From the NCBI GenBank assembly GCA_011050465.1, contig DRFQ01000001.1, positions 37,225 through 101,224 on the forward strand: DNA of 64,000 nucleotides, in the 5' to 3' direction. Origin of the DNA: Candidatus Nealsonbacteria bacterium (GTDB taxonomy: Bacteria; Patescibacteriota; Minisyncoccia; Minisyncoccales; RBG-13-36-15). The position numbers and the translations under genes are program-made. The notes under the pieces were generated by a model, which was not told the origin of the DNA, did no database searches, and worked only from the letters and a program-made list of their open reading frames with translations. Shown here piece after piece: positions 2,159-60,005 of the stretch. How positions within the stretch are numbered: the stretch's first letter is position 1; every line of letters starts with the position of its first letter.

Positions 2159-3214
2159 CTATTGTTCTTGGGTAAGAAATAGATTTCTTGCTTCATCCCA
2201 TATCTGAGAATTATTCTGAACACTCTTCATCCAGAACCACCATTCGGCTCCCCATAAATAAAACTCCTTGAAGCCGGTTCTTTTAGCAAATTCAATATTT
2301 TCTTTAAATTGAGTTGGATTCATTGTCTTTTGTTGCTCTTCAATTGGTGAATCATAAAGTAGTTTTTTCCCCCAAGGTTCAGCTTGAAGCTCAATTACTA
2401 TGACTTCTTTGCCAAATATTTTTTTAATAATCTGGGCTTTCCGCCAGTAAAAAGTTGGAGGAAAAGGATAATGTATATACATCCCTATCTGTCTAAACCC
2501 TCCTAAGTTTTTTTTCAAAAAATTTGGGAGGGTAAACCAGACCTTTTTATACATTGTCGTGCCTATGATATCTCCAAATCTGGCAGCTGTAATCCACAGG
2601 GACCCTTCTCCGCTATCTGAAATAATAACCGGCCTCTTTAAACGGTCTATAGATTTTACCAGTTCTATCTCTTTTTTCAAGAACACTTTATCAACCCAGG
2701 GACACTCGCCAAAAGGAAAAAATGGTTCGTTCTCTATTTGCCAATACTTGATGGTTTCTGAATTTTTATATCTATTAACAATTTTTTCTAACATTCTCAA
2801 AATCTTTTTTTGTTGCTGGTCTTTCGTTAGATTTTTTGCCCAATTGGGAGTGTGGCATTCCGGCCAGCGAGGAGTTTTCATGCCAATCGCTAAAAGAATT
2901 TGAGCTTCTCTTTTCTCGGCCTCCTCTATTTGCCAATCTAAGTCTCCAAAATTAAAATTTCCATCTTCTGGCTCAATTGAATCCCAGTGGGCGGCTACTT
3001 TCAAATTTTTTACTTCCAAATCATCAAGTAAGGCCAAATAGGTTTCTTGCCAATCTAATCCTAAAAGACTGGCGTGTTTTTGGGAAAAATTAACTCCCCA
3101 AATAATATCTTTAGCTATTGGCGGCTTCCCGATGAAAAGATAACCGGCAAAGACCAAAAGTAAAACAAAAATTCCCAATAGAATATATTTTAAAATCTTC
3201 TTAAATTTTTTCAT
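2159..3214 (-). CDS. membrane-anchored glycoside hydrolase (clan GH-A / GH5-like TIM barrel)
   Basis: 351 aa with an N-terminal TM helix. It has an ...YWQIENEPF motif (the NEP catalytic acid/base typical of GH-A enzymes). Confidence 0.55.
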   Translation of the reverse strand: MKKFKKILKYILLGIFVLLLVFAGYLFIGKPPIAKDIIWGVNFSQKHASLLGLDWQETYLALLDDLEVKNLKVAAHWDSIEPEDGNFNFGDLDWQIEEAEKREAQILLAIGMKTPRWPECHTPNWAKNLTKDQQQKKILRMLEKIVNRYKNSETIKYWQIENEPFFPFGECPWVDKVFLKKEIELVKSIDRLKRPVIISDSGEGSLWITAARFGDIIGTTMYKKVWFTLPNFLKKNLGGFRQIGMYIHYPFPPTFYWRKAQIIKKIFGKEVIVIELQAEPWGKKLLYDSPIEEQQKTMNPTQFKENIEFAKRTGFKEFYLWGAEWWFWMKSVQNNSQIWDEARNLFLTQEQ

Positions 3215-7427: not shown

Positions 7428-7498
7428 GGAATTCCCTCCTTGATGAAACATGCTATTTACCAATACTTAACCCTATTGCATCCTTAGTTATTTGTCAA

Positions 7499-7600
7499 AC
7501 AAAAAACCGCCTTCTTGGCGATTGATAAAGTTAACTAACAACTAAAAACTATAAACTAAAAACTAGAAAAATGGGTCGTCTAGCGGATGAGATTAGAACC
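7499..7600. repeat. junction repeat J5: terminator module plus AT-rich TAAAAACT-type tract plus T-arm-like fragment
   Basis: 7499-7568 is near-identical to 48031-48100 (CAAAAAACCGCCTTCTTGGCGATTnATAAAGTTAACTAAnAACTAAAAACTATAAACTAA...). 7576-7600 (GTCGTCTAGCGGATGAGATTAGAACC) is related to 8291-8311. Confidence 0.8.
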
Positions 7601-24109: not shown

Positions 24110-26210
24110 ATCACCAATTAAATCTCGAACTATCCAGCAATTTTTAGGCCGAAATTACAAGGTCTTATCTTCTTATGGCCATGTTAGAGATCTGCCAAAA
24201 AGTAAACTTGGGATAGATATAGAAAACGATTTTAAGCCAAGCTACATAATCATTCCAAAAACCAGAAAAATAACTCAGTTATTAAAAAAAGAAGCTAAAA
24301 AAGCAACATCTGTAATTTTAGCTACTGACGAAGATAGAGAAGGAGAATCCATTGCTTGGCATCTTGTCCAGTTGCTTAATCTGAATGGTTTAAAGCCTTA
24401 TCAAAGAATAGTTTTCCACGAAATTACAAAAAGAGCAATTGAGAAGGCTTTAAAAAATCCAAGAAAAATTGACATGAATTTAGTTAATGCCCAACAAGCC
24501 AGAAGAATTTTAGATCGCATTGTTGGCTATAAATTATCACCTTTTTTATGGGATAAAGTGGCTAGGGGGCTATCGGCAGGAAGAGTCCAGTCGGTAGCAG
24601 TAAGATTGATAGTTGAAAGAGAAAGAGAAATTCAGAAATTTACTCCCAAAGAATATTGGAGCATTGAGGCATTACTTAAAAAAAATAAAAATACAAAGGT
24701 AGAATTTAAGGCTTCGCTAATTAAGAAAAATGGAAAAACTATTCCAAAGCTTGCAATTGCAGCCAAAAAAGAAGCTGATAAAATTATCGAAGATCTAAAA
24801 GGGGCTGAATATAAGGTAATTGATATTGAAAAAAAAGAAGTAAAAAGAAATCCTCTTCCTCCATTTACAACAAGTACTTTGCAGCAAGAGATTTATCGAA
24901 AATTAAGATTCTCGGCAAGAAAAACCATGTTTATTGCCCAGCGGCTTTATGAAAAAGGGCATATTACCTATCACCGAACCGATTCTCTTAACCTTTCTGA
25001 ACAATCTTTATTGGCGGTTAAAAAATTCATTATCGGAAATTACGGTAAAAAATATTGGGCAGGTTTTCTGAAAAAGTATAAGGCTAAAGGTAAGACTCAA
25101 GAAGCCCATGAGGCCATTAGGCCAACTTATCCTGAAAATACTCCAGAAAAACTGAAAATAGAGGCAAAACCCGACGCCGGAGCGAAGCCCAGCACCAGAG
25201 CCGAGCACGGTGCCGGACCAGCCCCGAACCGAAACAAAGTTTCTGGTGCGGGGTTAGACGACGACCAGTTCAAACTTTATGATTTAATCTGGCGAAGATT
25301 TATTGCTTGCCAGATGAATCAAGCCATTTTCGACTCGACTACTATTGATATTTCAGCTAAAACATATCTCTTTCGGGCCACTGGCCAAATTTTAAAATTC
25401 GAAGGTTTTTTAAAAATATATCCCATTAAATTTGAAGAAAACGAACTACCATTATTGAAAAAAAATGAAGCCTTAAAGCTTATAAATCTCATATCTTCTC
25501 AGCATTTCACTCAGGCTCCCCCCAGATATACCGAAGCAACTTTAATTAAGACCCTGGAAGAAAAAGGGATTGGCCGGCCTTCAACCTATGCCCCGACATT
25601 AGCTACAATCCAAGGAAGAAATTACATTGAAAAAGATGCAAATAGACGGTTTCAACCAACCAGAATTGGTTTTATAGTAAACGATCTTCTGGTTAAAAAT
25701 TTTCCGAAGATTGTTAGTATTGATTTCACGGCCACGATGGAGGACGATTTAGATAAAATTGCTCAGGCAAAAGTAGGGTGGGTCACAATTATAAAAGAAT
25801 TTTATACTCCTTTTAATGAAAACTTAGAAAAAAAGCGTCAAAAAGTTTCAAAAAAAGAATCAATTGCAGAACTAACTAACGAAATTTGCCCAGATTGTGG
25901 AGCCAATTTATTAATTAGGATAAGCAGATTTGGAGAGTTTTATACTTGCTCCAATTTTCCAAAGTGTCGATACAAAAAAGATATCCCTAAATCTTTAGAT
26001 ATTAAATGTCCAAAATGTAAGAAAGGAGAAATGGTTGAAAGAAGGACAAAAAATAAGAAGATTTTCTATGGGTGCTCTCTCTGGCCGGACTGTGATTTTG
26101 CCTCTTGGGAAAAACCGATTGGAAAAAATTGTCCAAAGTGTGAATCAATCCTAGTTATCACTAAATGGAAAAAGATAAGGTGTTTTAATAAAGACTGTAA
26201 ACCCCGTTAG
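24090..26210 (+). CDS. topA: DNA topoisomerase I
   Basis: 706 aa with Toprim (VIVESPIKSRTI, ATDEDREGE), the active-site region ITYHRTDS, and four C-terminal CxxC...CxxC zinc ribbons. It overlaps dprA by 20 nt. Confidence 0.95.
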   Translation: MQLVIVESPIKSRTIQQFLGRNYKVLSSYGHVRDLPKSKLGIDIENDFKPSYIIIPKTRKITQLLKKEAKKATSVILATDEDREGESIAWHLVQLLNLNGLKPYQRIVFHEITKRAIEKALKNPRKIDMNLVNAQQARRILDRIVGYKLSPFLWDKVARGLSAGRVQSVAVRLIVEREREIQKFTPKEYWSIEALLKKNKNTKVEFKASLIKKNGKTIPKLAIAAKKEADKIIEDLKGAEYKVIDIEKKEVKRNPLPPFTTSTLQQEIYRKLRFSARKTMFIAQRLYEKGHITYHRTDSLNLSEQSLLAVKKFIIGNYGKKYWAGFLKKYKAKGKTQEAHEAIRPTYPENTPEKLKIEAKPDAGAKPSTRAEHGAGPAPNRNKVSGAGLDDDQFKLYDLIWRRFIACQMNQAIFDSTTIDISAKTYLFRATGQILKFEGFLKIYPIKFEENELPLLKKNEALKLINLISSQHFTQAPPRYTEATLIKTLEEKGIGRPSTYAPTLATIQGRNYIEKDANRRFQPTRIGFIVNDLLVKNFPKIVSIDFTATMEDDLDKIAQAKVGWVTIIKEFYTPFNENLEKKRQKVSKKESIAELTNEICPDCGANLLIRISRFGEFYTCSNFPKCRYKKDIPKSLDIKCPKCKKGEMVERRTKNKKIFYGCSLWPDCDFASWEKPIGKNCPKCESILVITKWKKIRCFNKDCKPR

Positions 26211-29192: not shown

Positions 29193-30521
29193 TTACCGAC
29201 CTAAAATATCGTTAATCTTAGCTCGGGTAGTTGAACCAACAAAACCAGTACCTTCCGTTAATCCCCAAGGAGCTAAGATATCTTCAGCATATTTTTCCTG
29301 AAAGCGAATTACTGCCTTCTTAGTTAAAGGACCAAACCAACCAGACACTATGCCTTCAGGATAAATCTCAGGACCTTGGGCTTTTAAGAAGATCTGTAAG
29401 TATCTGACGTCATCATTTGTCTGGTCATATTTAAGATTAATGGTGAATCTGTAATTAGTTGGGATTTCTTCAGTGACCTCCTTTTCCAAAAGTTGTTGAA
29501 GCTGAACTTTTAATTGGTTAATCTTTTCTGAAATTTCAGCAATCTTTTGTTTAAGTTCCTCAACGGTCATCTCAACAATTGGTTTTTCTTTTATCTCTCC
29601 CATTAGGGCAAACAAAGTAAAGTGGATGGTCTGGGCAGTGACAGTGTTAGTTAATGTGTTAACTTCGCTTTTCAATGGTTTCCAGCTTTTAGTAGTTTTA
29701 TCCCACCAGTAAATCTTGAGAGTCTTTTCATCAACCCCGACTTCTTTTACTTTTGCATCTGTATAGGTAAAAGTAATCGCCACTACTCCCTCAAATTTTT
29801 CTAATTCTTCTCCTCCAGAAAGAGCTGTAAAATCAGCTACTAAGTCACCAACTATTTTAGTATTTTTAGGTAAGGGATTGGTTTTAATTGCCTCAACTTT
29901 ATCTTTTGGCTCAATTTTAACTACCACTGTTCCCTTAATGCTGTAGGAAGGAAAAACTACTTTAGCTAACTCTCCAGATTCAAAGGTTTTTCTAACCTCT
30001 CCTCCTAAATTTTGATAAACATTACCTTGACCGGTAGTGCTGACTGGTGGAGAAATAACTCCACCACCACCAGTAACAACAACTGTTTTTCTCCAGCTTG
30101 TATTAATATTGCAATTAGCACAACTAAAACTAATCCAGCCCACATTTTCTCCCCAGGCATAACCTGAAAAATCACCGGTTGAACCATCAATAATTACCTG
30201 AGAACCAGTGGGATTGAAATTTATCCAACCAACATTCTCGCCCCAGGCATATCCTGAAAGATTACCCTGACCGTCATTGGTTACCCCGCCATAAGTAGGG
30301 TTGAGATTAATCCAACCAACATTTTCTCCCCAGGCATAGCCAGCAACTGCGCTATTTGTTACCGTTACCCCCTCGCCCTGGCTGGGATTAAAGTTGATCC
30401 AGCCCGCGTTTTCTCCCCAAGCGTAACCCGTGGTGTTTCCGGCAGCCCAAACTGGAAAGGCGAAGAAAAATCCTACCCATAAAATGACGGCAAGGAGAGT
30501 ATATTTTGTATTTTGGAACAT
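29193..30521 (-). CDS. secreted repeat protein with C-terminal peptidoglycan-binding domain
   Basis: 442 aa. It has a signal peptide (...FAFPVWAAG), four GYAWGENxGWI(N/S)F repeats, a coiled-coil segment, and a C-terminal PG_binding_1-like motif (VRYLQIFLKAQG...GWFGPLTKKAVIRFQEKY). Confidence 0.7.
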   Translation of the reverse strand: MFQNTKYTLLAVILWVGFFFAFPVWAAGNTTGYAWGENAGWINFNPSQGEGVTVTNSAVAGYAWGENVGWINLNPTYGGVTNDGQGNLSGYAWGENVGWINFNPTGSQVIIDGSTGDFSGYAWGENVGWISFSCANCNINTSWRKTVVVTGGGGVISPPVSTTGQGNVYQNLGGEVRKTFESGELAKVVFPSYSIKGTVVVKIEPKDKVEAIKTNPLPKNTKIVGDLVADFTALSGGEELEKFEGVVAITFTYTDAKVKEVGVDEKTLKIYWWDKTTKSWKPLKSEVNTLTNTVTAQTIHFTLFALMGEIKEKPIVEMTVEELKQKIAEISEKINQLKVQLQQLLEKEVTEEIPTNYRFTINLKYDQTNDDVRYLQIFLKAQGPEIYPEGIVSGWFGPLTKKAVIRFQEKYAEDILAPWGLTEGTGFVGSTTRAKINDILGR

Positions 30522-30853
30522 ATAACCTGGAATTTATAACTTATAACTTTCTTAGAATGCCCAATACCATCTGCTCCAACGTCTTCAGTTAATTCCATTG
30601 CTCTTCCATAGTTCTTTTTAGATACATAATTTTCGACCAAAGAAAAATGTAATAGATATTTGGCTTTCTTAAGTGATCCGTACGAGGTTTCTAAAAAATT
30701 CTTGTAGACATTATCCATTTTTCTGGCATAACCTTCAATGTAGTCTAAGACTATCGAAAGAGCAGCTCTTCGTAACTAAGAAGTTACTCCGTATAATTCA
30801 TCTCTGGGAAAATCTTTAGTAATTTTATAAACCAAATGAGCAAACTCATCCAT
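30473..30853 (-). pseudogene. four-helix-bundle protein (23S rRNA-IVS protein / DGR Avd family) with in-frame TAG
   Basis: My translation from the ATG at 30851-30853 gives MDEFAHLVYKITKDFPRDELYGVTS*LRRAALSIVLDYIEGYARKMDNVYKNFLETSYGSLKKAKYLL... The TAG at 30776-30778 replaces the conserved Gln of the ...SQLRRAAxSI...EG motif. The track only lists the downstream 81-aa part. Confidence 0.65.
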
Positions 30854-30926
30854 TTTAAATTACAAATGACTATGAAATTGGATCATAAATTCACGGGTTA
30901 CAGGTTAAGATACAAATTACAAGATT

Positions 30927-32636
30927 CTACCCGCGGACGCAACGGACATACAAAAGAAAAGTATCCTTATCGTAGCCGTCCACGCCGCCGGTGCCGAAGA
31001 ACACGACCCAGGCGCCGGCAGGGTTACCGACGAAGGTAGAACCCGACCAATAGTAGCTAGACTGAGTAGCGGGGAAATAAGTGGTGTTAATAGCTGGGCT
31101 AACATTTTGGTAATTAACAATGCTTTGCAGTTCTTTTATATTGGGCAATCTCCAGTCAGTCTGGCCGGCAAAATTAAGTCCTTCGCAGTACGAAGGAGCA
31201 GCTGCCCAATAATTAGTTTCAATCGTACCGGTGGTGCAAGTTGAGCCGGAAAGGCCTTTTGAACATTTCTGCCACATTAAATTAGTGTTGTTATCGGTGA
31301 TGGTCTCGTCTCCGTTGTCAGTAAATGACGGATCGAGGGTCCCGGAGTTTGCAGCAGTGTATTCAGCATCCTGCCCCGCTGGAGCATCACCGCAGGTTAT
31401 TGAGCCTCCCGTTGTGTTCCAACAGCCGGTTTGACCAGTATCGGGAAGAAGCCTTTTAAAGGTTCCGGCCACCCCAAATATGGAAATTCCGCTTTTAATG
31501 TTGCCTGCAGTCAGATCAGCATCTCCTTCAGCATAACCAGTGCCATTGTGATAACCTTGGGTAATGGTCAGGTTAGTAGTCGAGGGAGTAATAGTCTGCT
31601 GACCGACATTAGTCATTGTGCCGGTTAAAAGAGCGCCGGCTTTTGTCCAGGCCTCAAGTCCTGAGAGGATGTTGCCAACCACAGCGTCACCAGCCCCAGT
31701 ATCCCCGGGTAGAGCATAAGTGGCCGAAGGATAATCGCCGGTTAGTCCTACGCCAAAAAGAGTGTCTTTTTTTACCGTGCCAACAGTAAGATTGGCCGCG
31801 TTGTAAGTTCCGGCTCCGGCAGCCGTAGTTAAAACCGTGCTCTGGATTGTATCGCCGTAAGGATAACCGGCTGTAACGGTTCCGGCGATTCCAAAAATGG
31901 TTTTCCCGCTCAAAATATTGCCTGCTATCAAATCAATATCCACCGCGTCCAATGTTGTCGCGCTGTAATAGCCGGCGCTTACAGAGGTAGTGGCGGCTGA
32001 TAAAGTTTGAGTCGGCATTGTGCCGGTGATAAGCGCGCCTGCCTTGCTCCAAGCTTCCAAACCGCTTAAAATATCTGCGGCAGTACTGTCAGCAGCCGCG
32101 GTATCCCCGGGCAGAGTATAAGTGGCCGAAGGATAATCGCCAATCACGCTGAAAAGATCTACCCCGCTTTTTATCTTGCCCACAGTCAAATCAGCATCTC
32201 CTTCAGCATATCCTGTCCCATCGTGATAACCTAAGGTAATGGTCTGATTGGTTGTAGTGGGAGTAATAATCTGTTGTCCTACATTAGTCATTGTGCCAGC
32301 TACTCCCAAATAAGAAGTGCCAGAAAGCACTTTAGCAGCATCAATGGTGGGGATAGCTTCGTAAATCTGGGTGAGAGTATACATTGAGGAAGCTGGTGAG
32401 ACTGAAGGAGAAAATGAATGATCGCCTTCAGTGGAAGTAGCGTTGGTAGTTAAACGGGTATAGATATTTGAAAGGGTATACATAGTGGCTGCCGGCGAAG
32501 CCGAGGGTTCAAGATTGCCGGCTTTGACGATAACGAAGACAATGGCTACAGAAATGATGATGGTGACAAAACTTAGGAAAATTGTCCTGAATCTGTTCAT
32601 AGTTTTACGCAAAAATACAAAGTATTTCTTTTGCAC
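30927..32636 (-). CDS. membrane-anchored surface protein with internal duplications and a C-terminal DUF1566/C-type-lectin-fold domain (DGR-target type)
   Basis: 569 aa with an N-terminal TM anchor and repeated modules. The C-terminus is ...DWRLPNIKELQSI...YYWSGSTFVGNPAGAWVVFFGTGGVDGYDKDTFLLYVRCVRG*. The gene is visibly more GC-rich than its surroundings. Confidence 0.7.
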   Translation of the reverse strand: MQKKYFVFLRKTMNRFRTIFLSFVTIIISVAIVFVIVKAGNLEPSASPAATMYTLSNIYTRLTTNATSTEGDHSFSPSVSPASSMYTLTQIYEAIPTIDAAKVLSGTSYLGVAGTMTNVGQQIITPTTTNQTITLGYHDGTGYAEGDADLTVGKIKSGVDLFSVIGDYPSATYTLPGDTAAADSTAADILSGLEAWSKAGALITGTMPTQTLSAATTSVSAGYYSATTLDAVDIDLIAGNILSGKTIFGIAGTVTAGYPYGDTIQSTVLTTAAGAGTYNAANLTVGTVKKDTLFGVGLTGDYPSATYALPGDTGAGDAVVGNILSGLEAWTKAGALLTGTMTNVGQQTITPSTTNLTITQGYHNGTGYAEGDADLTAGNIKSGISIFGVAGTFKRLLPDTGQTGCWNTTGGSITCGDAPAGQDAEYTAANSGTLDPSFTDNGDETITDNNTNLMWQKCSKGLSGSTCTTGTIETNYWAAAPSYCEGLNFAGQTDWRLPNIKELQSIVNYQNVSPAINTTYFPATQSSYYWSGSTFVGNPAGAWVVFFGTGGVDGYDKDTFLLYVRCVRG

Positions 32637-33644: not shown

Positions 33645-34909
33645 TATAGTAGAGGAAATTTCTTACACAATTTTTTTATTTCTCTTTTCACCCGCCTAAG
33701 TTTTGCTTCGCAAAATTTTGGCGGGTTAATTTTTGAACTTTCAATAACTTCGTTAATCCAATAAGCTATCTTTCGCATCTCCTTTTCCTTCATCCCTCGG
33801 CTGGTAAGAGATGGCGTTCCAATTCTTAATCCCGAAGGGTCAAAAGGCTTTCTCTGGTCGTAGGGAATTCCATTTTTATTGGTTACTATCCCAACCTTTT
33901 CTAATAAATTCTGGGCTTCTTTGCCCGAAAGTCCTTTATTGGTTAAATTAATTAGAATCAAGTGGTTATCGGTTCCTCCGGAGATTAAATCGAAATTGTA
34001 TTTCTTGAGTTCTTCAGCCAAGACTTTAGCGTTTTTCACTATTTGTTGAATATATTTCTTAAATTGCGGTTTTTGGGCTTCTTTTAGCGCAACACCAAGA
34101 GCGCAAATTGTGTGATTATGTGGTCCTCCTTGAATTCCGGGGAAAACTTTCGGAAAAATCTTTTTCCGTAATGCTTCCCTGCAGATAATTATTGCTCCTC
34201 GCGGCCCCCTTAGAGTTTTATGTGTGGTTAAAGTCACAACATCTGCAAAAGGAAAAGGGCTGGGATGTACAGAGCCTGCAATTAAACCTGAAATATGGGC
34301 GATATCAGCCATTAAGTAAGCTGTAATCTTATGGGCAATCTGGGCGAATTTTTTAAAATTTACTTTTCTTGGATAAGCGCTGTATCCTGTAATAATTAAC
34401 TTTGGTCGTTCTTTTTTAGCTAATTTTTCGATTTCTCTATAATCTAAAAATCCTTTTTTATTTACAAAATAATTAACAACTTTGAAATCCTGGCCGGAAA
34501 GAGAAACTTTTGCCCCTTGGCTTAGATGGCCGCCATGACTCAAGGCCAGGCTCATAATTTTATCGCCAGGATTTAAAAGTCCTCTTAAAACTGCGTAATT
34601 TGCCAGACTTCCAGAATAAGGCTGAACATTTACTGCCCATTTTTTTGGACTTATCTTAAAAACTTTTTTTACTCTTTCTTCAACTAACGTCTCTAATTCA
34701 TCAATAATCCTTGTCCCCCCGTAATATCTCTTATATGGCCTCCCCTCAGAGTATTTGGCAATAAAGAGCGAGCTTAGAGCCTCTCTGACAGCTGTCGAAG
34801 CATAGTTTTCAGAAGCTATTAAATTCAAAGTCTCTTCGTGCCTTTTTCTTTCTTTGTCAATAAGAGCTGCAATTTTAGGATCTTTCTTTCGAATAATTTT
34901 AATGTCCAT
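33644..34909 (-). CDS. glyA: serine hydroxymethyltransferase
   Basis: 421 aa with LIASENY, the PLP-lysine region TLTTHKTLRGPRG, and GGPHNH. Confidence 0.95.
   Translation of the reverse strand: MDIKIIRKKDPKIAALIDKERKRHEETLNLIASENYASTAVREALSSLFIAKYSEGRPYKRYYGGTRIIDELETLVEERVKKVFKISPKKWAVNVQPYSGSLANYAVLRGLLNPGDKIMSLALSHGGHLSQGAKVSLSGQDFKVVNYFVNKKGFLDYREIEKLAKKERPKLIITGYSAYPRKVNFKKFAQIAHKITAYLMADIAHISGLIAGSVHPSPFPFADVVTLTTHKTLRGPRGAIIICREALRKKIFPKVFPGIQGGPHNHTICALGVALKEAQKPQFKKYIQQIVKNAKVLAEELKKYNFDLISGGTDNHLILINLTNKGLSGKEAQNLLEKVGIVTNKNGIPYDQRKPFDPSGLRIGTPSLTSRGMKEKEMRKIAYWINEVIESSKINPPKFCEAKLRRVKREIKKLCKKFPLL
33690..33726. repeat. 37-bp palindromic element inside glyA coding sequence
   Basis: ACCCGCCTAAGTTTTGCTTCGCAAAATTTTGGCGGGT, translated in-frame as PPKFCEAKLRRV. 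A homologous copy lies at 35378-35414. Confidence 0.85.
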
Positions 34910-35108: not shown

Positions 35109-35721
35109 TTTTGAAAAATTTAGTTATATTTTTATCGTATTCGGCTGTTCGCTGAAAGACTTTTTTGGCTAGTTCTAATCGAATTTTCTCTGGAATCTCT
35201 TTCTTCTGTTTTAGGACCTTTATAATCATACCATAATCTTCCGGGTCAATGACTACTGCTACATATTTATAATTTTTAGCTGCGGCTCTAATCATTGTTG
35301 GCCCGCCAATGTCGATATTATCAACGGCTTTCTCAAGAATGTAATCTTTTTGAGTAATAACTTTCTCAAAAGGATAAACCCGCCTAAGTTTTGTTTTACA
35401 AAATTTGGGTGGGTAAAGGTTGCAAACTACCATATCAATTGGCTGAATACCCAATTTTTTAGCCTCTTTCTGGTGTCTTAAATTTTTCCGGTCGTAAAGC
35501 AATGCTCCTTCAATCTGGAAAGAAATTGTCTTCATTCTTCCGTCGAAAGCTTCCGGATTCCTGGTAATTTTTTCGATTGGAATTATTTTAATCCCAGTTT
35601 TTTTAAGAATTTTGGCCGTCCCGCCAGTTGATACTATTTCCCAACCTAATTTAGTCAAATTTTTAGCAAAATCGGCTATTCCTATTTTATCCCAGACACT
35701 AATCAAAGCTCGTTTTTTCAT
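35098..35721 (-). CDS. purH: IMP cyclohydrolase (MGS-like) domain of PurH, stand-alone after internal deletion
   Basis: 207 aa with [15 protein letters not shown]...STGGTAK...DGRMKT...NLYP[insert]FEKV...[15 protein letters not shown]. Confidence 0.75.
35378..35414. repeat. 37-bp palindromic element inside purH coding sequence
   Basis: ACCCGCCTAAGTTTTGTTTTACAAAATTTGGGTGGGT, translated in-frame as [12 protein letters not shown]. It interrupts the conserved NLYPF motif. Confidence 0.85.
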
Positions 35722-47929: not shown

Positions 47930-48029
47930 TATTTTAAAAAAAACCGACCTTTATATTTATATAATTATTCTATCATTAAATCGTTTTTTTAGAAATCAAC
48001 TTAATAAAATTGTATCTTTTCTTATTATA

Positions 48030-48143
48030 CCAAAAAACCGCCTTCTTGGCGATTTATAAAGTTAACTAATAACTAAAAACTATAAACTAATAACTGAAAA
48101 TTACTTTGTAATTTTTATTGGCTCCGCGGGTAGGAATCTCACT
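48030..48143. repeat. junction repeat J3: terminator module plus AT-rich tract plus tRNA-3'-end-like fragment
   Basis: 48031-48100 is near-identical to 7499-7568. 48122-48143 in reverse complement reads GTGAGATTCCTACCCGCGGAGC(CA), which resembles the T-arm/acceptor 3' half of the tRNA-Leu at 28211-28233. Confidence 0.75.
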
Positions 48144-58503: not shown

Positions 58504-59850
58504 TTACAATTTTTGCCTTAGAACCTCAACTAAATCATTAACTTTTACTCTCTCTTGCTTCATCGTATCACGATCTCTAATGGTCACATCGTTTTGTTTT
58601 AAAGTCTCAAAATCGATCGTAACTGCGTACAAAACTCCGGTCTCGTCCCCCCTACGGTATCTTCTGCCAATTGAACCCAATTCATCGTATTGAGTAATAA
58701 AATGAGGTTTTAATATTTGATAAACTTCTTTGGCTTTTTTAACTAATGCTGATTTATTCTTAACCAAAGGCAGAACTGCTATTTTTATTGGCGCTAAAGA
58801 TTTATGAAGTTTAAGTAAAATCTCGGTCTCTTTGACGGCTTTAGTGGTTTTAGTCCTGCCGCCTTTTATTTCTTGATAGCTATCTATCAAAAAAGCAAAA
58901 AGAGATCTTTCCACTCCAACCGATGTTTCAATAATATAAGGAAAGTATTGTTCTTTAGTTTCTTCATCAAAATATTTCAAGTCTTTTCCTGAATATTTTG
59001 AATGGTTAGATAAATCCCAATCTCCCCGATTATGAATTCCCTCAATTTCTTTCCACCCAAAAGGAAATTTATACTCAATATCTATTGCCCGCTTGGCATA
59101 ATGGGGAAGTTCAGATTCTGAGGCCTCTTTTATCCTTAAGTTTGATTTTTTGATTCCCAAGCTTAAATACCACTTCATTCTCTCTTTCTTCCAAAAATCA
59201 AACCATCTGGCTGCTGTTTTTGGGTGGCAAAACCACTGCATTTCCATCTGCTCAAATTCTCGAGTTCGATAAATAAAGTCTTTTGGAGTAATTTCATTTC
59301 TGAAGGATTTTCCAATCTGAGCTATCCCAAAGGGGATTTTCAACCTCATTGAATTTAAAACATTTTCGAAATTCACGTAAATCCCCTGGCAGGTTTCGGC
59401 CCGCAAATAAGTCTGGGTAGCTTTTTCTTCAACCGCTCCAACAAAAGTTTTCATCATTAAATTAAATTTCCGGGGCTTGGTTAGCTGACCACCGCATTCA
59501 AGACATTTTGAATCTTTTGACTCATCTAACCGAAATCTTTTATGACATGATTTGCATTCAACCAATTCATCTGCAAAGCCGGCCGTCAAGTGGCCGGAAG
59601 CCTGCCAAACTTTAGGCGACATTAAAATAGCTGCATCTAAGCCGACAATATTGTCATGCAATCTTATCATTTCGTTCCACCAAGCTTTTTTAATGTTGTT
59701 TTTAAATTCTACTCCCAAAGGCCCGAAATCATAACAAGACCTAAAACCGCCATAAATCTCAGATGACGGAAAAATAAAACCCCGCCTCTTTGCGAGACTG
59801 ACTATTTTTTCCATTAAATTAGATTGATCTTTTAAATATTTTTCTTTCAT
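58504..59850 (-). CDS. glyQS: glycyl-tRNA synthetase, dimeric (alpha2) type
   Basis: 448 aa with class II motifs (FRNEITPKDFIYRTREFEQMEMQWF, GVERS) and a C-terminal anticodon-binding domain. Confidence 0.95.
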   Translation of the reverse strand: MKEKYLKDQSNLMEKIVSLAKRRGFIFPSSEIYGGFRSCYDFGPLGVEFKNNIKKAWWNEMIRLHDNIVGLDAAILMSPKVWQASGHLTAGFADELVECKSCHKRFRLDESKDSKCLECGGQLTKPRKFNLMMKTFVGAVEEKATQTYLRAETCQGIYVNFENVLNSMRLKIPFGIAQIGKSFRNEITPKDFIYRTREFEQMEMQWFCHPKTAARWFDFWKKERMKWYLSLGIKKSNLRIKEASESELPHYAKRAIDIEYKFPFGWKEIEGIHNRGDWDLSNHSKYSGKDLKYFDEETKEQYFPYIIETSVGVERSLFAFLIDSYQEIKGGRTKTTKAVKETEILLKLHKSLAPIKIAVLPLVKNKSALVKKAKEVYQILKPHFITQYDELGSIGRRYRRGDETGVLYAVTIDFETLKQNDVTIRDRDTMKQERVKVNDLVEVLRQKL

Positions 59851-59867
59851 TTAACGGACAAAGAGTA

Positions 59868-60005
59868 AAAGAGGCGCCCGCTCCGACTCGCCCGCTCCGA
59901 CTCGCCATCTTCGGCAAGGCTGGGCGGAGACGAGGCGAGAGGCTCGCCCCCAACGGGGGCGGCCCGTCGCCTGCCTCGTAGGCCGAGTACACAAATTTTA
60001 TGTAC
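59868..60005. other. GC-rich, strongly structured intergenic segment with a tandem 15-mer
   Basis: CCCGCTCCGACTCGC occurs twice in tandem (59877-59906). Hairpins are GCCCCC-AAC-GGGGGC, nested in GAGGCGA...TCGCCT, and CCGAGTACA-(10 nt)-TGTACTTCGG. GC is far above the local background. Confidence 0.7.

What the first reader, a model, noticed from the sequence alone, without database searches (positions are those of the whole stretch)
30927..31055. Orphan DGR-type variable-region signature at the C-terminus of a surface protein (no template repeat or reverse transcriptase in the window)
The last 42 codons (YYWSGSTFVGNPAGAWVVFFGTGGVDGYDKDTFLLYVRCVRG*) fit the ...YWS...AWxVxFxxGxVxxxxK.....VRCVR ending of DUF1566/FGE-type C-type-lectin folds. 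These folds are the most common targets of diversity-generating retroelements. On the coding strand the first 87 nt of this segment contain only 9 adenines, in an otherwise A/T-rich genome. That is what is expected if template AAC codons have been replaced by mutagenic retrohoming. An Avd-family four-helix-bundle gene follows 73 bp downstream on the same strand, which is the canonical target-avd order. However, I found no second copy of this ~126-nt stretch (TR) and no ORF with RT motifs anywhere in the 64 kb. The place where TR-RT normally sit is occupied by the start of the 442-aa secreted protein gene. This could be a target served in trans by a remote DGR, or a fossil cassette.
Basis: partly seen in the sequence, partly recalled or inferred. 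Interest (0 to 1): 0.65.

Follow-up and report, generated by a model that had tools for sequence, protein, structure and literature searches.

The report
Frozen retroelement target, cassette lost
The end of this bacterial surface-protein gene was once rewritten by a diversity-generating retroelement, but the retroelement itself is gone from the locus and the "variable" region now looks fixed, so this is a relic of a known system rather than a new one.

Summary
The last ~140 nt of a 557-aa surface protein (Lcl_C/DUF1566 C-type-lectin-like domain) are adenine-poor: 9 A in 87 nt.

A pattern scan recovered the matching template repeat (TR) from close relatives, next to an Avd gene and a DGR reverse transcriptase (RT). 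Against that TR, the window's stretch differs at 27 of 44 template adenines but only 5 of 96 other positions (p=1e-12). It is therefore a genuine DGR variable region (VR).

In relatives the order is target, GIY-YIG, Avd, TR, RT, 438-aa gene. The window keeps the target and the 442-aa ortholog. The ~2.4-kb core between them is replaced by a ~400-bp cassette holding a dead four-helix-bundle gene (two stop codons and a frameshift). This gene is not the relatives' Avd. Four of its five nearest homologs examined sit in non-DGR contexts.

No TR or RT was found in 82 kb of the source contig. The VR is identical in at least four assembled contigs and differs by one codon in a 99.2%-identical strain. 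Relatives with an intact cassette differ at 24 of 140 VR positions despite ~99.9%-identical flanks.

Verdict: an orphaned, apparently frozen DGR target in a Candidatus Nealsonbacteria genome. A remote DGR acting in trans is unlikely but not excluded.

The parts
30927..32600 (-). Target gene: 557-aa membrane-anchored surface protein (N-terminal TM/signal anchor, internal ~130-aa repeats, C-terminal Lcl_C domain). The ORF opens at GTG 32636; gene callers use ATG 32600.
   Evidence: ORF list. Exact protein P0121 is named 'DUF1566 domain-containing protein [Candidatus Nealsonbacteria bacterium]'. 1,593 homologs with E<=1e-10.
30933..31307 (-). Lcl_C / DUF1566 C-type-lectin-like domain (aa 444-568 of the 569-aa ORF).
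   Evidence: Pfam PF07603 E=3.8e-37, 127.6 bits against a cut-off of 34.9. AlphaFold2 model of the last 177 aa has pLDDT 91. Best PDB match is the Legionella Lcl C-terminal domain 8q4e_A (E=4.5e-4), followed by C-type lectin-like domains.
30928..31067 (-). Variable region (VR): the 140 nt homologous to the template repeat of relatives' DGRs. It is adenine-poor and rich in NNC codons.
   Evidence: Against the TR of L007/L010: 27 of 44 TR-adenine positions differ, 5 of 96 other positions differ, Fisher p=1.1e-12. Replacements of A are G 17, T 9, C 1.
30957..30959 (-). The only VR codon that differs between the two known strains: TTT (Phe) here, AGT (Ser) in strain L001/L002. It sits on the TR codon AAT, the 3'-most AAY codon of the TR.
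30541..30886 (-). Four-helix-bundle (TIGR02436 / 23S_rRNA_IVP family) pseudogene. In-frame TAA at 30860-30862, in-frame TAG at 30776-30778, +1 insertion near 30571. The ancestral stop is at 30541-30543.
   Evidence: Translation. Alignment to 8 homologs of 65-71% identity. TIGR02436 66.2 bits against cut-off 24; PF05635 E=2.2e-20. Nucleotide comparison of the 3' end. TAG is an ordinary stop codon here: TAA 24, TAG 9, TGA 8 among long ORFs.
30895..30920 (.). Decayed upstream arm of the heptamer inverted repeat that brackets the four-helix-bundle cassette (CTTGTAA TTTGTAT CTTAACC TGTAACC on the minus strand).
   Evidence: Read from the sequence. The same kind of arm, 30-51 nt, brackets all five homologs examined. 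The arms in the window were matched by eye, not by the repeat finder.
30522..30556 (.). Downstream arm of the same cassette (AAGTTATAAGTTATAAATTCCAGGTTAT on the minus strand). It ends at the ATG of the 442-aa gene.
   Evidence: It is the only heptamer array of this type in the window.
29193..30521 (-). 442-aa secreted protein with WGENxGWI repeats and a C-terminal peptidoglycan-binding domain. It is the conserved right-hand neighbour of the DGR core in relatives.
   Evidence: 83% nt identity to the 438-aa gene that directly follows the RT in L007. PG_binding_1 E=9.6e-7. The same neighbourhood (DUF1566 target, Avd, RT, WGENxGWI protein) is seen in several CPR lineages.

Best explanation
This is the variable region of a DGR target gene whose retroelement core has been lost from the locus.

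Shown:
- The 140-nt C-terminal stretch carries the adenine-specific substitution pattern expected from mutagenic retrohoming off a TR that still exists, almost unchanged, in close relatives.
- In those relatives Avd, TR and RT lie between this gene and the ortholog of the 442-aa gene.
- In this genome that interval holds only a small inverted-repeat-flanked cassette with a dead four-helix-bundle gene.
- No TR or RT lies within 82 kb.
- The VR is essentially invariant among assemblies and strains.

Inferred:
- In an ancestor, TR RNA was reverse-transcribed with errors at adenines. The cDNA replaced the VR and randomised about 13 AAY codons on the ligand-binding face of the C-type-lectin-like domain.
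- The core (GIY-YIG, Avd, TR, RT; ~2.4 kb) was then deleted or replaced.
- The protein now works as an ordinary surface binding protein of fixed specificity.
- Its A-poor, GC-rich tail is a mutational scar.
For: 1. The VR signature is real: 9 A in 87 nt, in the 0.13% tail of all such windows.
2. The pattern scan of metagenome contigs returned relatives' TRs (L007, L008) and VRs (L009, L010). Against that TR the window differs at 27/44 adenine positions and 5/96 others, p=1e-12.
3. The intact cassette was reconstructed from L015, L010 and L007, which overlap at 99.7-100% identity. Its order is target-VR, GIY-YIG, Avd (121 aa, bAvd-like), TR, RT (377 aa, with LPIGNLTSQ and YVDD motifs), 438-aa gene.
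4. The window shares the target gene (77-80% nt) and the 442-aa gene (83% nt) with these relatives, and nothing in between.
5. tblastn and a profile HMM find no RT, Avd or GIY-YIG remnant in the window. The added ~9 kb on each side of the same contig has no TR or RT match either.
6. The structure is not an assembly artefact. The identical arrangement appears in contigs from JGI, ENA, Logan and NCBI assemblies, one of which is 385 kb long.
7. Stasis. The exact protein occurs on 9 contigs, and the four whose DNA was read are 100% identical here. The 99.2%-identical strain differs in the VR by one codon (2 of 140 nt), against 6 differences in ~4,250 nt elsewhere.
8. Positive control. L009 and L010 differ at 25 of 1,098 nt. 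Of these, 24 lie in the 140-nt VR and 21 are at TR adenines. Contigs of cassette-bearing relatives also break at the VR or TR.
Against: - Only 82 kb of a 385-kb contig, and none of the rest of the genome, could be searched. The metagenome and genome collections do not hold the source contig, so a remote TR-RT is not excluded.
- The one strain difference (TTT vs AGT) changes the first two bases of exactly the codon that is AAT in the TR. A short 3'-anchored retrohoming tract would produce that. Both strains already lack the local cassette.
- Consensus contigs hide within-population variation, and reads were not available.
- Five non-adenine mismatches to the relatives' TR mean the lineage's own former TR must have differed slightly, or the VR has drifted.
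Confidence: 0.75

Rival explanations
1. The VR is still a live target, diversified in trans by a complete DGR (TR plus RT, with or without Avd) elsewhere in the same genome or on a mobile element.
For: DGRs can act on non-adjacent targets, and Avd, TR and RT work when supplied in trans (Wu et al. 2018, PMC5758913). The only VR difference between two strains that both lack the local cassette is a double change at the first two bases of the TR-AAT codon at the 3' end of the variable sites. Partial, 3'-anchored conversion tracts are expected from the mechanism (PMC5758913). About 300 kb of the contig was not searched.
Against: No TR or RT in 82 kb. None of the 120 closest CPR DGR RT clusters has a longest contig of 385,502 bp. 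No matching TR in viral contigs. The VR is identical across several assemblies and nearly so across strains, whereas cassette-bearing relatives change 17% of VR positions at ~99.9% flank identity. A partial tract would also have had to reproduce TTA->TTG in the next codon and leave the neighbouring adenines untouched.
Confidence: 0.12
2. A static DUF1566 domain never touched by a DGR. The adenine depletion merely reflects a GC-rich, possibly horizontally acquired, gene.
For: The whole gene is more GC-rich (~49-50%) than the genome (36.6%). Other A-poor islands exist in the window.
Against: The mismatches to an independently recovered TR are concentrated on template adenines (27/44 against 5/96, p=1e-12). 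Orthologs 75-80% identical over the aligned part have near-identical sequence up to the VR and then differ exactly at the AAY codons.
Confidence: 0.02
3. The cassette is present in the organism but was dropped by mis-assembly across the VR/TR repeat.
For: VR/TR repeats do break or confuse assemblies of the relatives.
Against: A VR-to-TR jump would leave the RT directly after the repeat. Here unique sequence follows instead: the four-helix-bundle cassette and then the 442-aa gene. The same junctions are found in independent assemblies made with different assemblers, and in a second strain.
Confidence: 0.02
4. The four-helix-bundle pseudogene is the decayed Avd of a lineage-specific cassette (target, 4HB-Avd, TR, RT). 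A deletion removed only TR-RT, after which the useless Avd decayed.
For: The family is in the same clan as bAvd (PF22296 hit E=1.6e-5; NF033474 E=3.1e-5). Its closest homolog (P0242, 77% by BLASTP) also lies directly downstream of a DUF1566 gene (L016). The decay (2 stops plus a frameshift) fits loss of function after RT loss.
Against: L016 has no TR or RT on its 2.7 kb either. Four other close homologs sit in unrelated neighbourhoods with no RT within 6 kb. All of these are self-contained units flanked by heptamer inverted repeats. The Avd of the orthologous cassettes, and of similar cassettes in other CPR lineages, is the 'AQYxHLPI' type.
Confidence: 0.15

Closest known systems
Patescibacteria/CPR diversity-generating retroelements with DUF1566 (CLec2-class) targets. 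DGR 'clade 2' of Roux et al. 2021 (PMC8144416). Category 'd' / CLec2 of Wu et al. 2018 (PMC5758913), exemplified by Legionella LdtA.
   Same: Same target domain and the same VR position at the C-terminus ending ...YVRCVR. Same adenine-specific TR-to-VR substitution pattern. Orthologous intact cassettes (target, Avd, TR, RT) were recovered from close relatives.
   Different: This genome's locus has no TR, RT or Avd, and the VR does not vary among assemblies. It is a product of the system, not a working system.
Nostoc sp. PCC 7120 all3226: a variable-protein paralog with 'remnant TR-VR homology' but no nearby RT (Vallota-Eastman et al. 2020, PMC7517822).
   Same: A DGR-marked variable protein without proximal diversification machinery. 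[quoted passage not shown]
   Different: That genome still has two DGRs elsewhere, and the gene is a dispersed paralog. Here the orphan sits at the orthologous, syntenic site of the lost cassette. The loss can be bracketed to ~400 bp and contrasted with active relatives.
Remote (non-adjacent) DGR targets, e.g. the additional targets described by Wu et al. 2018.
   Same: A VR with no adjacent TR-RT.
   Different: Remote targets have a matching TR somewhere in the genome and remain variable. No TR was found in 82 kb, and the VR is static.
23S rRNA intervening-sequence protein / TIGR02436 four-helix-bundle family (same clan as bAvd).
   Same: The downstream ORF matches this family over nearly its full length. 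Like rRNA intervening sequences, it is bracketed by inverted repeats.
   Different: It is a pseudogene, it is intergenic rather than inside an rRNA gene, and it is not the Avd type used by the related DGRs.

Membership tests
DGR target (variable protein with VR) | VR lies in a C-type-lectin-like (or Ig) ligand-binding domain, usually at the C-terminus | tested here: met
   Pfam Lcl_C E=3.8e-37. AF2 model pLDDT 91 matches Lcl C-terminal domain 8q4e_A and C-type lectin-like domains.
DGR target (variable protein with VR) | VR/TR pair whose mismatches fall almost only at TR adenines | tested here: met
   Met against the TR of orthologous cassettes in relatives: 27/44 A positions against 5/96 non-A, p=1e-12. 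The genome's own TR was not found.
Complete, functional DGR cassette | Cognate TR in the same genome | tested here: not met
   None in the 64-kb window or in 82 kb of the source contig. The rest of the genome is not testable with these tools.
Complete, functional DGR cassette | DGR-type reverse transcriptase near the TR | tested here: not met
   tblastn with a relative's RT and a profile HMM of 120 CPR DGR RTs: best E 0.64 in the window and 0.13 in the flanks.
Complete, functional DGR cassette | Accessory protein Avd (or HRDC etc.) | tested here: not met
   The only candidate is a pseudogene (TAA, TAG, +1 frameshift). It scores 24.2 bits against a cut-off of 80 for NF033474. That cut-off is also missed by the relatives' genuine Avd (35 bits), so context and orthology carry the argument.
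Complete, functional DGR cassette | Ongoing hypervariability confined to the VR among strains or populations | tested here: not met
   The VR is identical in the four contigs read of the nine that carry the exact protein, and 2 of 140 nt differ in a second strain. Relatives with the cassette differ at 24 of 140 nt with ~99.9%-identical flanks. Read-level diversity could not be tested.
TIGR02436 / PF05635 four-helix-bundle protein | Full-length match above the curated cut-off and an intact ORF | tested here: inconclusive
   The sequence match is met once the TAG is read through as Q: 66.2 bits against 24, and 73.3 against 33.8. The ORF is broken in three places, so it is a pseudogene of that family.

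The most novel reading that the evidence does not exclude
The VR is not fully frozen. It may still receive rare, short, 3'-anchored retrohoming tracts from a DGR located elsewhere in the genome or on a mobile element. The TTT/AGT difference at the TR-AAT codon, between two strains that both lack the local cassette, would be the trace. That would be a natural case of a target kept under trans control after losing its own cassette.
Probability: 0.1. Interest if true: 0.6.

Novelty: new member of a known kind. Interest (0 to 1): 0.4.

Why it matters
DGR surveys start from the reverse transcriptase, so targets that have lost their cassette go uncounted. This locus is a clean, syntenically bracketed example. 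The same gene neighbourhood exists with a working cassette and a fast-changing VR in relatives, and without the cassette and with a static VR here. That gives a natural 'diversify, then fix' comparison in an ultra-small Patescibacteria genome. It also shows that a VR scar can be recognised from sequence alone (A-poor, NNC-rich, ...YVRCVR), and it identifies which residues of this surface lectin-like domain form the former variable binding face. It does not reveal a new mechanism.

Tried and rejected
- The pattern scan of metagenome contigs was meant to find the TR in the source sample. It did not return the window's own contig, so that collection cannot answer the in-genome question. It gave relatives instead.
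- The same pattern found nothing in GTDB representative genomes or in viral contigs.
- The RT homolog search was meant to spot an RT on a 385,502-bp contig. None appeared among the top 120 of more than 7,900 hits, which is uninformative beyond that.
- Walking along the contig was limited to about 9 kb on each side, because look-ups accept only window proteins.
- A genome-collection scan with the 442-aa protein found no close ortholog for synteny, only domain-level relatives.
- A single-sequence search of the PDB gave nothing. The fold had to be obtained from a predicted model.
- I considered TAG read-through or recoding for the four-helix-bundle gene and rejected it. TAG ends the target gene itself and 9 of 41 long ORFs, and the pseudogene also has a TAA and a frameshift.
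- I first considered that the adenine depletion alone proves DGR action and rejected that too. Other islands in the window are equally A-poor.

Full report
**What is at the coordinates**

The finding lies at the 3' end of a minus-strand gene, 30927..32600 (ATG start; the ORF opens at GTG 32636). The product has an N-terminal membrane anchor, internal repeats, and a C-terminal Lcl_C/DUF1566 domain (aa 444-568, E=3.8e-37).

The exact protein is on record as a DUF1566 protein of Candidatus Nealsonbacteria. It occurs on nine contigs, the longest being a 385,502-bp JGI contig. The window is positions 246,210-310,209 of that contig, reversed.

An AlphaFold2 model of the last 177 residues has pLDDT 91. 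It matches the Legionella Lcl C-terminal domain (8q4e_A) best, then a long list of C-type lectin-like domains.

**The observation**

The first 87 nt of the segment contain 9 adenines (10%). The gene as a whole has 25%, and these are the lowest values in the gene. Only 0.13% of all 87-nt windows on either strand are this A-poor.

A handful of other GC-rich islands match it, so composition alone is suggestive rather than decisive.

No template repeat exists in the window. This was checked by blastn, by an adenine-tolerant scan, and by IUPAC patterns. No reverse transcriptase exists either, by tblastn or by a 120-sequence profile HMM.

**The decisive evidence**

Orthologs 75-80% identical over the aligned part (P0003, P0004), and the 57%-identical P0002, match the window protein closely up to ...SDYYWSG. 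They then diverge only at scattered codons before ...LLYVRCVR.

I wrote the VR as a pattern with NN at those codons and scanned the collections. The metagenome scan returned four contigs. Two carry VRs (L009, L010). Two carry an AAC-rich copy of the same 140 nt, which is a template repeat (L007, L008).

In L007 and L010 the TR sits between a 121-aa bAvd-like gene and a 377-aa RT with LPIGNLTSQ and YVDD motifs. L015, the contig of P0002, links the target gene through a GIY-YIG gene and the same Avd into the TR. It overlaps L010 at 100% identity and L007 at 99.7%.

The relatives' cassette order is therefore: target-VR, GIY-YIG, Avd, TR, RT, 438-aa gene.

Aligned to this TR, the window's 30928..31067 differs at 27 of 44 template adenines and at 5 of 96 other positions (Fisher p=1.1e-12). 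The adenines were replaced by G 17 times, T 9 times and C once. This is the hallmark of DGR mutagenic retrohoming, so the stretch is a bona fide VR.

**What is missing**

The window shares the target gene with these relatives (77-80% nt). It also shares the gene after the RT: the 442-aa protein at 29193..30521 is 83% identical at the nucleotide level to the 438-aa gene of L007. Nothing in between is shared.

The ~2.4-kb core is absent. The ~400 bp between the target's stop codon and the 442-aa start codon is filled by one small unit, a four-helix-bundle ORF with repeat arms on both sides.

The same 'DUF1566 target, Avd, RT, WGENxGWI-repeat protein' neighbourhood recurs in Peregrinibacteria, Peribacteria and other CPR genomes. 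The window thus keeps both conserved flanks and lacks only the retroelement core.

The arrangement is identical in independent JGI, ENA, Logan and NCBI assemblies and in a second strain. Mis-assembly is therefore not the cause.

The added ~9 kb on each side of the same contig also lack a TR and an RT.

**The 'Avd' gene**

The ORF 73 bp downstream matches TIGR02436/PF05635 (66 and 73 bits), which is the clan that includes bAvd. It is dead for three reasons:
- An in-frame TAA at 30860-30862 cuts off the conserved N-terminus (MxxFHDDLK...).
- An in-frame TAG at 30776-30778 replaces the invariant Gln of SQLRRA.
- A +1 insertion near 30571 removes the normal stop.

TAG is a normal stop codon in this genome.

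Homologs 68-77% identical by BLASTP were examined in five contexts:
- Four lie between unrelated genes, with no RT within 6 kb: after a prepilin peptidase, after EF-Tu, inside a pilus operon, and next to a TraG-like gene.
- One lies after another DUF1566 gene, but with no TR or RT on its 2.7-kb contig.

In all five, the ORF is tightly bracketed by 30-51-nt inverted repeats built from tandem heptamers (CTTATAA...TTATAAG). The window retains decayed versions of both arms.

The Avd used by the orthologous cassettes, and by similar cassettes in other CPR lineages, is a different 'AQYxHLPI' subfamily.

The gene is therefore most simply a separate, probably mobile, IVS-like cassette rather than the cassette's Avd. 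I give a decayed lineage-specific Avd about 15%.

**Active or frozen?**

*Positive control.* L009 and L010 differ at 25 of 1,098 aligned nucleotides. Of these, 24 are in the 140-nt VR and 21 are at TR adenines. Contigs of cassette-bearing relatives typically end at the VR or TR.

*The window's lineage.* The exact protein is found on nine contigs, and the four whose DNA was read are 100% identical across the region. The locus is spanned by a 385-kb contig.

A second strain is 99.2% identical over 4.7 kb and shows 37 differences:
- 29 form a gene-conversion tract between the protein's internal repeats (31310-31605).
- 6 are scattered elsewhere.
- 2 are in the VR, both in one codon (TTT here, AGT there).

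That codon is AAT in the TR and is the 3'-most AAY codon of the TR. The change has the form expected of a short 3'-anchored retrohoming tract. It could equally be an ordinary double substitution at a binding-site residue.

VR turnover here is at least ten-fold lower than in relatives at comparable strain divergence. I conclude the VR is frozen or nearly so.

**Comparison with what is known**

- DUF1566 VRs form the CLec2 class of DGR targets, exemplified by Legionella LdtA. DGRs can act on remote targets, and in trans (PMC5758913).
- Patescibacteria have their own DGR clade (PMC8144416).
- A variable-protein paralog with remnant TR-VR homology and no nearby RT has been noted in Nostoc, with the suggestion that diversification components may be removed once a good variant is found (PMC7517822).

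The present case is a new example of that known situation, unusually well bracketed by synteny. It is not a new kind of system.

**Limits**

The public collections I could scan do not contain the source contig. Reads were not available. A remote DGR acting in trans therefore stays at roughly 10-12%.

Noticed in passing
window 30522-30920; loci L013:5962-6388, L014:1347-1754, L016:1004-1440, L020:5976-6381, L022:5950-6386: A subfamily of TIGR02436 four-helix-bundle genes (~115 aa) occurs as compact units. Each ORF is bracketed by 30-51-nt inverted repeats made of tandem heptamers (CTTATAA/ATAACTT ... AAGTTAT). The units are inserted between unrelated genes in different CPR genomes. They look like a small mobile or IVS-like cassette. 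The window's copy is a pseudogene.
   Followed up: partly
loci L100, L098, L066, L045, L044, L082; L007; window 29193-30521: A secreted protein with WGENxGWI repeats lies directly next to a DGR reverse transcriptase in six of the 80 loci found with it. In at least four CPR lineages the order is DUF1566 target, Avd, RT, WGENxGWI protein. This is a conserved neighbourhood and hints at a functional partnership between the two surface proteins.
   Followed up: partly
window 31310-31605 (versus 32164-32302): Between two strains, 29 of 37 differences cluster in one internal repeat of the target gene. They make it identical at the protein level to the other repeat copy (QQIITPTTTNQTITLGYHDGTGYAEGD). 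This indicates gene conversion between intragenic repeats.
   Followed up: partly
window 2497-2553, 33690-33746, 35378-35434: A ~37-nt palindromic element (ACCCGCCTAAGTTTTG...CAAAATTTGGCGGGT) occurs three times. The latter two copies lie in-frame inside unrelated coding regions: SHMT and a PurH-like protein carry PPKFC[EK][AT]KLRRV. This is reminiscent of Rickettsia palindromic elements.
   Followed up: no
window ~25150-25300, ~59850-60000, ~1800-1900: Short GC-rich, adenine-poor islands in an AT-rich genome. One lies inside the topA gene (peptide KPDAGAKPSTRAEHGAGPAPNRNK). One appears to be intergenic, with G/C-rich palindromic runs. They are as A-poor as the VR but show no DGR features.
   Followed up: no
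window 7496-7569 and 48027-48100 (also 49024, 50174): A repeated hairpin (AAAAACCGCCTTCTTGGCGATT) is followed at the first two sites by tandem AACTAAA/AACTATA heptamers. It is 93% identical between two sites 40 kb apart. It is either terminator-like or another small repeat family.
   Followed up: no
loci L010:2159-2733 and L015:~1730-2010: One or two small GIY-YIG nuclease genes sit between the VR and Avd in the relatives' cassettes. The intergenic space after the target gene seems to collect small selfish genes.
   Followed up: no
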